Shown one piece after another: positions 47,904 through 48,266 of a stretch of DNA of 64,000 nucleotides. Position numbers and translations under genes: made by a program. The stretch comes from a virus, in the IMG/VR virus record IMGVR_UViG_3300042335_000796, positions 27,524-91,523 of that record. One strand, 5' to 3'. Each line of letters begins with the position of its first letter. Positions within the stretch are counted from its first letter, which is position 1. The notes beneath the pieces are model-generated. The model saw nothing but the letters and a program-made list of their open reading frames with translations, was not told where the DNA came from and ran no database searches.

Positions 47904-48068
47904 AAGTTTTAAAATTCGTTTAAAACTTGTTTATCACATGTAACAATGGGATAAACGTGCTGGTTGTACAGCACATGGTGACCAATGAATAAACATTGGA
48001 AGTTCAAACTTGGGAAAGTAATTTCCACTCACCAAATACCTTTTTATTATTTCAAAGGTTGTTACAAC
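47904..48068 (+). ncRNA. tracrRNA/omegaRNA-like scaffold with type V-F/TnpB-like topology
   Basis: Consecutive hairpins. Loop GTTGTA (47963-68) is complementary to the repeat 3' end TACAAC. The 3' segment ATACCTTT...GGTTGTTACAAC is complementary to the repeat. Confidence 0.7.
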
Positions 48069-48266
48069 TTAGGCTGGAGTTGATAATTCTGCGATTCTGT
48101 TGTAACAACCCCTAATTTGAAAGGTATATACAACCCCAGATGTCAGGTACACCTCGGCATCACAGTTGTAACAACCCTTAATTTGAAAGGTATATACAAC
48201 GGTGGCAGCAATACAAGCCAAGGAAAAAGAGTTGTAACAACCCTTAATTTGAAAGGTATATACAAC
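48069..48266 (+). CRISPR. Orphan CRISPR mini-array: three 36-nt repeats and three 30-nt spacers
   Basis: Repeat GTTGTAACAACCCTTAATTTGAAAGGTATATACAAC at 48099-48134 (1 mismatch), 48165-48200 and 48231-48266. Spacers at 48069-48098, 48135-48164 and 48201-48230. Confidence 0.95.

What the first reader, a model, noticed from the sequence alone, without database searches (positions are those of the whole stretch)
48035..48098. Scaffold 3' end doubles as a degenerate repeat followed by exactly 30 nt: a natural single-guide RNA or omegaRNA-to-CRISPR intermediate
Seen: the scaffold ends TTTCAAAGGTTGTTACAAC versus the repeat end TTTGAAAGGTATATACAAC (15/19 identical). It can fold on itself (ACCTTT/AAAGGT) and supply TACAAC to the GTTGTA loop in cis. 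The distance to repeat 1 is 30 nt, the same as the two internal spacers. Inference: scaffold plus first spacer is a fused guide like a TnpB omegaRNA, while the same segment can act in trans as anti-repeat for the downstream crRNAs. That is what an array arising from an omegaRNA end would look like. Alternative: it is a leader-repeat hairpin that silences the first repeat, as described for type VI-B arrays.
Basis: partly seen in the sequence, partly recalled or inferred. Interest (0 to 1): 0.8.

Follow-up and report, generated by a model that had tools for sequence, protein, structure and literature searches.

The report
Anti-repeat cap on phage CRISPR array
A lake phage carries a small Cas13b-type CRISPR array with no cas gene, and the stretch just before it is a remodelled copy of the repeat that should fold back on the first repeat and switch it off, as recently described in bacteria; it does not look like a natural single-guide RNA.

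Summary
48050-48068 matches the repeat's last 19 nt at 15/19, exactly 30 nt lie before repeat 1, and ACCTTT/AAAGGT can pair.

The repeats are type VI-B: 36 nt, GUUG...CAAC ends, 30-nt spacers. They are 32/36 identical to an array next to cas13b in a Flavobacteriales MAG. The 91.5-kb phage contig has no Cas13b, TnpB/Cas12f domain or dual-HEPN ORF.

Three of the four changes in the degenerate copy (ATA to TGT) create a perfect 12-nt complement of the repeat's 5' half. Leader-repeat 1 duplex energy is -26 kcal/mol. Shuffled leaders reach that in 3/2000 trials, and random repeat decay in 1/5000. This fits the leader-repeat hairpin that blocks extraneous crRNA in VI-B systems (EMBO J 2026).

In lake metagenomes 48069-48090 (to 48128 in one run) is unchanged, while spacer 1 (probably spacer 2 too) is replaced. 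No protospacer was found.

The anti-repeat is repeat-derived and sits one spacer length upstream. The array lies in a phage and appears co-transcribed with a GOLLD RNA.

Earlier scan notes report cas-less Cas13b-type arrays in other giant lake phages, but not this arrangement.

The parts
47711..47761 (+). Promoter copy P1 (Bacteroidota -7 box TAACTTTG at 47738-47745)
   Evidence: 51-nt direct repeat D2. TAnnTTTG boxes found. Relatives L070 and L008 have tandem promoters of the same type upstream of GOLLD.
47822..47872 (+). Promoter copy P2 (TAACTTTG at 47849-47856). It is the last such box before 49115, so it should drive the scaffold, array and GOLLD as one RNA.
   Evidence: No + strand terminator-like site lies between it and the GOLLD end.
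47888..47898 (+). boxA-like GTTCTTTGAAA motif
   Evidence: Read. The same motif lies upstream of GOLLD in L070 and L008 and in L016/L022/L027.
47903..48032 (+). Structured leader ('scaffold'): several hairpins and a three-hairpin junction. The GTTGTA loop is at 47961-47966.
   Evidence: Fold z-score -6.0. In run X3 all six changes fall in hairpin 48000-48011 and keep its four pairs: U-A becomes C-G, and two A-U become G-U. No Rfam family matches. No look-alike in 151 related loci.
48033..48068 (+). R0: a 5'-truncated, remodelled repeat copy. It has its own hairpin (48038-48043 with 48054-48059) and a 12-nt perfect anti-repeat (48057-48068).
   Evidence: R0-R1 duplex is -24.8 kcal/mol against -15.1 for an intact repeat copy. 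Random decay of the repeat reaches -26 in 1/5000 trials.
48069..48098 (+). 30-nt segment: the loop of the leader-repeat hairpin and probably a fossil spacer. It is the guide part of the would-be extraneous crRNA.
   Evidence: It does not itself pair with repeat 1 (P=0.004). It is identical in X17 (whole segment) and in X1 and X3 (to 48090). No protospacer found. GC is 40%, and 10.8% of phage 30-mers reach that level.
48099..48134 (+). Repeat 1 (C at position 14), predicted to be sequestered by R0
48135..48164 (+). Spacer 1 (57% GC, foreign composition), replaced by other sequence in runs X1 and X3
48165..48200 (+). Repeat 2
48201..48230 (+). Spacer 2 (47% GC). It is identical in X9 and probably replaced in X3.
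   Evidence: records 27 and 19.
48231..48266 (+). Repeat 3
48267..48320 (+). A-rich linker with no promoter box and no terminator
48321..49107 (+). GOLLD RNA: the variable 5' half (about 48321-48706) and the conserved 3' half (48707-49107)
   Evidence: Rfam RF02032, 311.7 bits, E 2.5e-88. The 5' half aligns with L070 and LR745206.

Best explanation
48033-48068 is a former CRISPR repeat whose 5' end was lost and whose 3' half has been remodelled into an anti-repeat.

Proposed mechanism:
- The long RNA starts at the tandem promoters, near 47862.
- The free 3' tail of this element pairs with the first 12 nt of repeat 1 as soon as they emerge.
- A further 9-12 pairs then form between 48034-48052 and the 3' half of repeat 1.
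- Repeat 1 therefore cannot form the hairpin that Cas13b recognises.
- As a result, 48069-48098 plus repeat 1 is not matured into an 'extraneous' crRNA.
- Only spacer 1 + repeat 2 and spacer 2 + repeat 3 are offered to the host's Cas13b.

On this view the 30 nt are a fixed leader loop, most likely a fossil spacer, and not an active guide.

The whole unit is a cas-less type VI-B mini-array carried by a Flavobacteriales jumbo phage. It depends on host Cas13b.

Shown: the sequence relations, the VI-B identity of the repeat, the excess complementarity, and the fixed versus variable segments in natural populations.

Inferred: transcription as one RNA, the block of Cas13b processing, and what the phage gains. 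My estimate for the array's purpose is about 40% guides against competitors, 35% decoy for host Cas13b, and 25% no function.
For: 1. VI-B identity.
- The repeat is 36 nt with GUUG/CAAC ends, a U-rich loop and 30-nt spacers. These are the defining array features in bioRxiv 10.1101/092577.
- It is 32/36 identical to an 8-repeat array next to a 1109-aa protein in Flavobacteriales bacterium UBA7612. That protein hits the PADLOC Cas13b model at 2.6e-83 and has two RxxxxH motifs.

2. Known mechanism.
- In VI-B systems the leader pairs with the first repeat and blocks Cas13b binding and processing (PMC13187072).

3. Folding tests here.
- With a leader of 66 nt or more, 65% of repeat-1 positions pair with the leader and the internal repeat hairpin has probability 0.000. 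Shuffled leaders match this in 2/300 trials.
- Nascent transcripts ending anywhere from 48110 to 48230 keep R0 paired with R1.
- Duplex energy is -26.0 kcal/mol. Dinucleotide shuffles average -15.5 +/- 3.0 and reach the observed value in 3/2000 trials. Real phage windows do so in 6/1988.

4. Directional change.
- ATA to TGT closes the repeat's 3x3 internal loop against ACA.
- An intact repeat copy would pair with repeat 1 at only -15.1 kcal/mol.
- Randomly decayed copies average -10.1 and reach -26 in 1/5000 trials.

5. Host comparison.
- The closest host array also has a significant leader-repeat hairpin (0/200 shuffles).

6. Population data.
- 48069-48090 (to 48128 in one run) is identical in three runs from different studies and years.
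- The scaffold of X3 has diverged, and spacer 1 is replaced in both X1 and X3.
- VI-B arrays grow at the transcription-proximal leader end (PMC8092290). Sequence upstream of repeat 1 is therefore expected to stay fixed.
Against: - No RNA data exist, and no related phage with a diverged copy was found, so there is no covariation for the R0-R1 helix.
- The hairpin loop is 30 nt. In P. gingivalis and in UBA7612 the anti-repeat lies within the 30 nt next to the repeat.
- By the published metric (all functional repeat pairs opened) the natural leader is not exceptional. It scores 0.997 against a shuffle mean of 0.75, and 30/150 shuffles match it, because the repeat hairpin is weak at -5.2 kcal/mol.
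- At equilibrium the full array refolds as R0-R3 and R1-R2.
- If the array were purely a decoy for Cas13b, silencing its first unit would bring no obvious gain.
- Contigs of two runs break at 48090, so a variant at 48091 or 48060 cannot be excluded.
- Only 31% of the phage genome is in hand.
Confidence: 0.6

Rival explanations
1. Plain decay. R0 is an eroded terminal repeat and 48069-48098 is an old but still working spacer. Cas13b still makes a crRNA from it with repeat 1, and the complementarity between R0 and repeat 1 is a by-product of the repeat being a near-palindrome.
For: - The 30-nt spacing is exact and the 3' end matches at 15/19.
- The repeat is self-complementary, so any copy pairs with it to some extent (-15.1 kcal/mol).
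- GC is 40%, somewhat above the phage mean of 27%.
Against: - Random decay lowers pairing (mean -10.1 kcal/mol). The real copy raises it to about -25, which random decay reaches in 1/5000 trials.
- The three loop substitutions are exactly the complementary bases.
- In VI-B arrays the degenerate (old) end is expected to be distal to the promoter, not proximal (PMC8092290).
- No protospacer was found.
Confidence: 0.12
2. RNA anti-CRISPR acting in trans. The abundant leader, with its 12-15-nt anti-repeat, pairs with host pre-crRNA repeats. Alternatively the phage-made crRNAs swamp host Cas13b. On either version the element is counter-defence and not array housekeeping.
For: - The host-type repeat (UBA7612) has the same first 12 nt, so the anti-repeat fits it.
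- Strong tandem promoters are present.
- A non-targeting crRNA over-expressed in trans lowered Cas13b defence about 1000-fold (PMC13187072).
- Racrs are repeat mimics in phages (PMC10651486).
Against: - In cis, repeat 1 sits 30 nt away and should occupy the anti-repeat first.
- Mature crRNA repeats are protein-bound.
- The Racr survey found solitary repeat units for all types except VI.
- Spacer turnover is not needed for a decoy.
Confidence: 0.13
3. The scaffold plus 48069-48098 is a natural fused guide, and the scaffold is a tracr/omega-like RNA for an unseen type V or TnpB-like nuclease. The locus would then be an omegaRNA turning into a CRISPR array.
For: - The geometry fits: a structured RNA of about 165 nt, an anti-repeat at its 3' end, and then exactly 30 nt.
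- A GTTGTA loop could pair with the repeat's 3' end.
- Natural phage single-guide RNAs exist for Cas9 (bioRxiv 10.64898/2026.06.01.729453).
- An unchecked scan note (e1-5375068) reports a Cas12f system with a tracrRNA in another giant lake phage, and 69% of this genome is unseen.
Against: - The repeat is 32/36 identical to a cas13b-linked array.
- No TnpB/Cas12f TNB domain is on the contig, and the neighbours are not nuclease-like.
- The scaffold shares no words with that Cas12f locus.
- The 'guide' is invariant where real spacers vary.
- GTTGTA occurring once in 165 nt is about a 4% chance event.
Confidence: 0.05
4. Split ('long') repeat. The GTTGTA loop (47961-47966) and R0 together rebuild a Cas13b-binding repeat interrupted by about 70 nt, like the interrupted long repeat that is processed in Bergeyella zoohelcum. 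Cas13b would then cut at 48068/48069 and release a normal first crRNA.
For: - VI-B arrays contain interrupted repeats that are processed into a 118-nt crRNA (bioRxiv 10.1101/092577).
- R0 keeps the repeat's central stem and its 3' TACAAC.
Against: - Only 6 nt of a 5' fragment are present.
- A fully paired 6-nt hairpin loop is sterically poor.
- The 12-bp pairing with repeat 1 is far stronger.
Confidence: 0.05

Closest known systems
Leader-repeat hairpin that blocks extraneous crRNA in type VI-B and related Cas13 systems (Porphyromonas gingivalis VI-B2; Migur et al., EMBO J 2026, PMC13187072)
   Same: - Spacer-repeat crRNA layout.
- A transcribed leader pairs with the first repeat and out-competes the repeat's own hairpin.
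- The predicted outcome is that no crRNA forms from the leader-derived 30 nt.
- The nearest host array (UBA7612) shows the same feature.
   Different: - Here the anti-repeat is itself a remodelled repeat copy.
- It sits exactly one spacer length (30 nt) upstream, not inside those 30 nt.
- It ends a structured RNA of about 165 nt.
- The array is in a phage with no cas13b nearby.
- Nothing was tested biochemically.
Virus-borne mini-CRISPR arrays and solitary repeat units / RNA anti-CRISPRs (PMC6858448; PMC10651486)
   Same: - A short cas-less array in a virus, behind a strong promoter.
- Its repeats are close to those of a host system.
   Different: - It is type VI-B, which the Racr survey did not find in viruses.
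- No spacer match to related viruses was found.
- It has three repeats, so it is not solitary.
- It carries its own first-repeat silencer.
Phage-encoded single-guide RNAs for Cas9 (vsgRNAs; bioRxiv 10.64898/2026.06.01.729453) and TnpB/IscB omegaRNAs
   Same: A phage-borne structured RNA with an anti-repeat-like segment adjoining a guide-length segment.
   Different: - The order here is anti-repeat, then 30 nt, then repeat. It is not guide, repeat, anti-repeat.
- The repeat family is Cas13b-type, which uses no tracrRNA.
- No cognate nuclease was found.
GOLLD RNA loci with linked tRNAs (Rfam RF02032; Kretsch et al., Nature 2025, PMC12286853)
   Same: Tandem promoters, a boxA-like motif, small RNAs and then GOLLD on one strand, as in L070 and LR745206.
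   Different: - The slot filled by tRNA-Met in relatives holds the structured leader plus CRISPR mini-array here.
- None of the 59 other GOLLD loci surveyed, nor L070 or LR745206 (L008), has an array.

Membership tests
Type VI-B (Cas13b) CRISPR array | 36-nt direct repeat with complementary 5'-GUUG and CAAC-3' ends and a U-rich open loop (bioRxiv 10.1101/092577) | tested here: met
   The repeat alone folds with its ends paired.
Type VI-B (Cas13b) CRISPR array | 30-nt spacers | tested here: met
   Start-to-start spacing is 66 nt.
Type VI-B (Cas13b) CRISPR array | Repeat family found next to cas13b | tested here: met
   32/36 identity to the UBA7612 array beside a 1109-aa Cas13b (PADLOC 2.6e-83, two RxxxxH motifs). 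A second related array follows a cas13b 3' end in CETS01016619.
Type VI-B (Cas13b) CRISPR array | cas13b in the same locus or genome | tested here: not met
   There is no Cas13b model hit and no dual-HEPN ORF in the 91.5-kb contig. The contig is about 31% of the phage, so this is an orphan array as far as can be seen.
Type VI-B (Cas13b) CRISPR array | Processing into 66-nt spacer-repeat crRNAs | not testable with these tools
   No RNA run is listed among the holders.
Leader-repeat hairpin (ecrRNA block) | Leader pairs with the first repeat more than chance allows | tested here: met
   2/300 shuffles, 3/2000 shuffles and 6/1988 genomic windows.
Leader-repeat hairpin (ecrRNA block) | All functional repeat pairs opened more often than with shuffled leaders (the published metric) | tested here: inconclusive
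   0.997 against a shuffle mean of 0.75, with 30/150 shuffles matching it. The repeat hairpin is weak.
Leader-repeat hairpin (ecrRNA block) | Blocks Cas13b binding and processing of the first repeat | not testable with these tools
   Needs EMSA or a processing assay, or small-RNA-seq.
Leader-repeat hairpin (ecrRNA block) | Conserved among relatives | tested here: inconclusive
   It is identical in the three runs where a listed contig covers R0 (X1, X3, X17). No diverged relative was found.
tracrRNA / single-guide RNA / omegaRNA | Cognate RNA-guided nuclease (Cas9, Cas12, TnpB or IscB) encoded with it | tested here: not met
   PF07282 gives no match. The flanking ORFs have no nuclease features. 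The rest of the genome is unseen.
tracrRNA / single-guide RNA / omegaRNA | Anti-repeat complementary to the array repeat | tested here: met
   A perfect 12-nt match. This is also what a leader-repeat hairpin requires.
tracrRNA / single-guide RNA / omegaRNA | Guide segment varies between relatives while the scaffold is kept | tested here: not met
   48069-48090 (to 48128 in one run) is unchanged where the scaffold of X3 differs and spacer 1 is replaced. This is contig-level evidence only.
RNA anti-CRISPR (Racr) / solitary repeat unit | Repeat mimic in a virus, promoter-proximal, without cas genes | tested here: met
RNA anti-CRISPR (Racr) / solitary repeat unit | Solitary unit without true spacers | tested here: not met
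   There are three repeats and two compositionally foreign, polymorphic spacers.

The most novel reading that the evidence does not exclude
The GOLLD nanocage RNA and a Cas13b-type guide array are made as one molecule. In this phage GOLLD's covalently linked 'cargo' would then be pre-crRNA instead of tRNA. The assembled 14-mer could display many repeat hairpins that lure, sequester or load host Cas13b, with the repeat-derived anti-repeat controlling which units are exposed. That would give GOLLD, whose function is unknown, a link to CRISPR counter-defence or to warfare between phages.
Probability: 0.1. Interest if true: 0.85.

Novelty: new variant of a known kind. Interest (0 to 1): 0.55.

Why it matters
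If the reading is right, several things follow.

- **Reach of the mechanism.** A regulatory trick described in 2026 for bacterial Cas13 arrays would also be kept in a phage-borne, cas-less array.
- **Origin of the silencer.** It shows one way such a silencer can arise: a repeat copy converted into an anti-repeat by three substitutions.
- **Evidence of selection.** It implies that the phage array is under selection for how it feeds host Cas13b. This argues against the array being a passive scar.
- **Type VI gap.** The published survey of viral repeat units did not find type VI.
- **Link to GOLLD.** The apparent fusion to a GOLLD RNA offers a concrete, testable handle on a large RNA of unknown function.
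- **Caution for annotators.** An anti-repeat beside an array is not by itself a tracrRNA.

Tried and rejected
**Searches for relatives**
- IMG/VR scans for the repeat and for anti-repeat + gap + repeat gave 0 hits.
- The metagenome scan for the repeat found only a host cas13b array.
- Neither 59 GOLLD-bearing viral loci nor 92 loci found through the two neighbouring proteins hold the scaffold or an array beside GOLLD.

**RNA evidence**
- No RNA holder is listed among the 24 runs. This says nothing about expression.

**Protospacers**
- None was found for the three 30-mers in the phage collection, the phage's own contig and MAG G001, 401 genomes of the host's order, or IMG/VR with 22-23-mers.
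- Host spacers from UBA7612 and CETS01016619 do not match the phage contig.

**Host genomes**
- The Cas13b model hit only G001 among 401 genomes of that order, so a wider survey of host leaders was dropped.
- Cas1 and Cas9 were not found in G001, which may be incomplete.

**Tests that were uninformative**
- The published 'all pairs open' statistic did not discriminate.
- The global fold of the whole array gives R0-R3 and R1-R2 pairing. I treat this as an equilibrium artefact of palindromic repeats, because nascent prefixes keep R0-R1.
- The hit of R0 to G059 lies inside an AT-rich coding region and is chance.
- Weak Rfam hits (mir-231, DUF2693 RNA, tmRNA) are far below threshold.

**Translation of the array**
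- Only one repeat frame is open, and it is closed by TGA and TAA inside 48069-48098. No gene runs into the array.

Full report
**Where the window lies.** The window is bases 27524-91523 of a 91.5-kb IMG/VR viral contig. CheckV rates the contig about 31% complete. It has 27% G+C. It carries baseplate and tail-fibre genes with SprB and Por_Secre_tail modules, plus endolysins, so it is a large phage of Bacteroidota.

- Three 36-nt repeats lie at 48099-48134, 48165-48200 and 48231-48266, separated by 30-nt spacers.
- The 19 nt at 48050-48068 match the repeat's 3' end at 15/19, and exactly 30 nt follow before repeat 1.
- Matches of 15/19 occur four more times by chance in the window, so similarity alone is weak. 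A hit in exact array register is about a 3e-5 event.
- ACCTTT (48038-48043) pairs with AAAGGT (48054-48059).
- GGTTGTTACAAC (48057-48068) is the perfect reverse complement of the first 12 nt of every repeat, and it is unique in the window.
- Allowing a 4-nt insertion, the element keeps repeat positions 10-36 at 21/27. The first nine positions are replaced by the closing strand of an upstream helix.

**The repeat family is type VI-B.**
- A scan of one genome per prokaryote species found one array with the same 5' half, in Flavobacteriales bacterium UBA7612.
- Its repeat is 32/36 identical to the phage repeat, with 30-nt spacers.
- It lies directly downstream of a 1109-aa protein that matches the PADLOC Cas13b model at 2.6e-83. 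That protein has RxxxxH motifs near both ends.
- A metagenome scan found a second related array immediately after a cas13b 3' end.
- The repeat meets the published VI-B array features: 36 nt, GUUG/CAAC ends, a U-rich loop and 30-nt spacers. The mature crRNA is a 30-nt 5' spacer plus a 36-nt 3' repeat (bioRxiv 10.1101/092577).
- VI-B uses no tracrRNA (PMC13187072).
- The phage contig has no Cas13b hit, no Cas12f/TnpB TNB domain and no ORF with two HEPN motifs.
- The neighbouring ORFs are small or acidic and show no nuclease features.
- This is therefore an orphan VI-B mini-array that would depend on host Cas13b. UBA7612 has the same low G+C (25-27%) as the phage.

**What the degenerate copy does.** In 2026, Migur et al. 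showed that in VI-B and related subtypes the leader RNA pairs with the first repeat. This blocks Cas13b binding and processing, and so prevents an 'extraneous' crRNA built from leader sequence (PMC13187072). I tested that idea on this locus.
- With only the 30 nt as leader, repeat 1 folds on itself (P paired with leader 0.004).
- Once 48033-48068 is included, 65% of repeat-1 positions pair with the leader and the internal hairpin has probability 0.000. Shuffled leaders match this in 2 of 300 trials.
- The pairing appears as soon as the first 12 nt of repeat 1 are transcribed. It persists for nascent ends from 48110 to 48230.
- Leader-repeat duplex energy is -26.0 kcal/mol. Dinucleotide shuffles average -15.5 +/- 3.0 and reach the observed value in 3/2000 trials. 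Real phage windows average -12.6 and do so in 6/1988.
- Three of the four differences from the repeat in the last 19 nt (ATA to TGT) turn the repeat's 3x3 internal loop into Watson-Crick pairs with ACA of the 5' half.
- An intact repeat copy would pair with repeat 1 at only -15.1 kcal/mol. Randomly decayed copies average -10.1, and only 1 in 5000 reaches -26.

The changes are therefore directional: a repeat has been converted into an anti-repeat. The nearest host array also has a significant leader-repeat hairpin, but there the anti-repeat abuts the repeat.

**Caveats on the folding evidence.**
- The published 'all repeat pairs opened' statistic is not discriminating here, because the repeat hairpin is weak.
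- The equilibrium fold of the whole array switches to R0-R3 and R1-R2. I regard this as kinetically unlikely.

**Is 48069-48098 a spacer?** Twenty-four lake-water and estuary DNA runs from 2020-2025 hold this stretch. I laid four of them on it.
- A contig in X17 covers 47964-48128 with no difference.
- X1 is identical up to 48090.
- X3 covers 47886-48090 with six changes, all inside one small scaffold hairpin.
- In X1 (two contigs at about 4x each) and in X3 (19.9x), spacer 1 is replaced by unrelated sequence.
- An X3 contig spanning spacer 2 carries 19 substitutions and 3 gaps, a number typical of a different spacer. The positions are not listed, so this point is inferred.
- Spacers 1 and 2 are compositionally foreign: 57% and 47% G+C, reached by 0.2% and 2.8% of phage 30-mers. 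The 30-nt segment is 40% G+C, reached by 10.8%.
- No protospacer was found for any of the three.
- VI-B arrays are transcribed from the leader end, which is also where they grow (PMC8092290). Sequence upstream of repeat 1 is therefore expected to stay fixed.

The exact 30-nt length is best explained as a fossil spacer trapped when its upstream repeat was converted. One point remains open: contigs of X1 and X3 both break at 48090, which implies a variant at 48091 or 48060 that I could not see.

**Context.**
- Two 51-nt promoter copies with the Bacteroidota -7 box TAACTTTG lie at 47711-47761 and 47822-47872.
- No further such box occurs on either strand until 49115, and no + strand terminator-like site was found.
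- Rfam places a GOLLD RNA 3' domain at 48707-49107 (311.7 bits).
- The GOLLD 5' half aligns from about 48321 with GOLLD loci in L070 and in the 635-kb phage LR745206.
- GOLLD here therefore seems to be made from the same promoters, through the structured leader and the array.
- In those relatives the same slot holds tRNA-Met and the same GTTCTTTGAAA motif. This matches the published link between GOLLD and tRNAs (PMC12286853).
- None of 59 other GOLLD-bearing viral loci, nor L070 or LR745206 (L008), has a CRISPR-like array.
- The roughly 165-nt leader is strongly structured (z = -6.0).
- The six X3 changes keep all four pairs of hairpin 48000-48011, so it is probably a functional RNA domain. 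It matches no Rfam family and nothing in 151 related loci.

**The fused-guide / omegaRNA reading.** Its geometry is coherent, and natural phage single-guide RNAs exist for Cas9. An unchecked note from this scan reports a Cas12f system with a tracrRNA in another giant lake phage. Against it:
- The repeat is a Cas13b repeat.
- No effector is present.
- The scaffold shares nothing with that Cas12f locus.
- The putative guide does not vary.

I put this reading at about 5%.

**What the array is for.** This remains open.
- Keeping a silencer of the first unit suggests that the identity of the loaded guides matters, for example guides against competitors.
- On the other hand, over-expressed non-targeting crRNA can cripple Cas13b defence, so a decoy role is plausible.
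- Viral repeat units of type VI were not found in the Racr survey.
- Earlier notes of this scan report cas-less Cas13b-type arrays in other giant lake phages.

**Verdict.** The feature is real. It is best read as a repeat-derived leader-repeat hairpin in a phage-borne VI-B mini-array. It is a new variant of a known mechanism, in an unusual setting fused to GOLLD.

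Noticed in passing
window 47862-49107: A CRISPR mini-array appears to be co-transcribed with a GOLLD RNA (Rfam 311.7 bits). No promoter box or terminator lies between them. Relatives carry tRNA-Met in that slot, and none of 59 other GOLLD loci surveyed has an array. The GOLLD cryo-EM paper I read does not mention CRISPR, and a combined GOLLD + CRISPR search listed nothing relevant.
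   Followed up: partly
window 48000-48011: In run X3 six substitutions cluster in one 4-bp hairpin of the leader and preserve every pair. AAGT-TCAA-ACTT becomes GGGC-TTAC-GCTT, while the other 199 nt of that contig are identical.
   Followed up: partly
window 48090/48091: Contigs of two independent runs (X1, X3) end at 48090, and one in X1 restarts at 48061. This implies a population variant at 48091 or 48060 that the output did not show.
   Followed up: no
window 47888-47898; L070 about 2505-2515 and 2860-2870 (- strand); L008 2924-2934: A boxA-like motif (GTTCTTTGAAA, or GTTCTTTAAAA in L070's second copy) recurs upstream of GOLLD and of tRNA-Met in related phages. It may be an antitermination signal for these long RNAs.
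   Followed up: partly
window 48135-48164 and 48201-48230: Both spacers are much more G+C-rich (57% and 47%) than either the phage or the candidate host lineage (about 25-27%). Their source is neither typical phage nor typical host sequence.
   Followed up: partly
window 48099-48299: The 66-nt period keeps one reading frame open through the repeats and both spacers (listed ORF 48117-48299, 60 aa). That frame is closed by TGA and TAA inside 48069-48098. Unlike the 'translated arrays' noted elsewhere in this scan, no gene runs into this array.
   Followed up: yes
L070 2530-2600 (- strand): Between the last promoter and GOLLD, the nearest syntenic relative has a small hairpin carrying GGTTGTAAAG twice. 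This faintly resembles the start of the repeat, and its meaning is unknown.
   Followed up: no
L169 900-1800 (G236:C1): A Flavobacteriales-order genome holds a long array of VI-B-like repeats that differ from one another at many positions, so the array looks degenerate or drifting.
   Followed up: no
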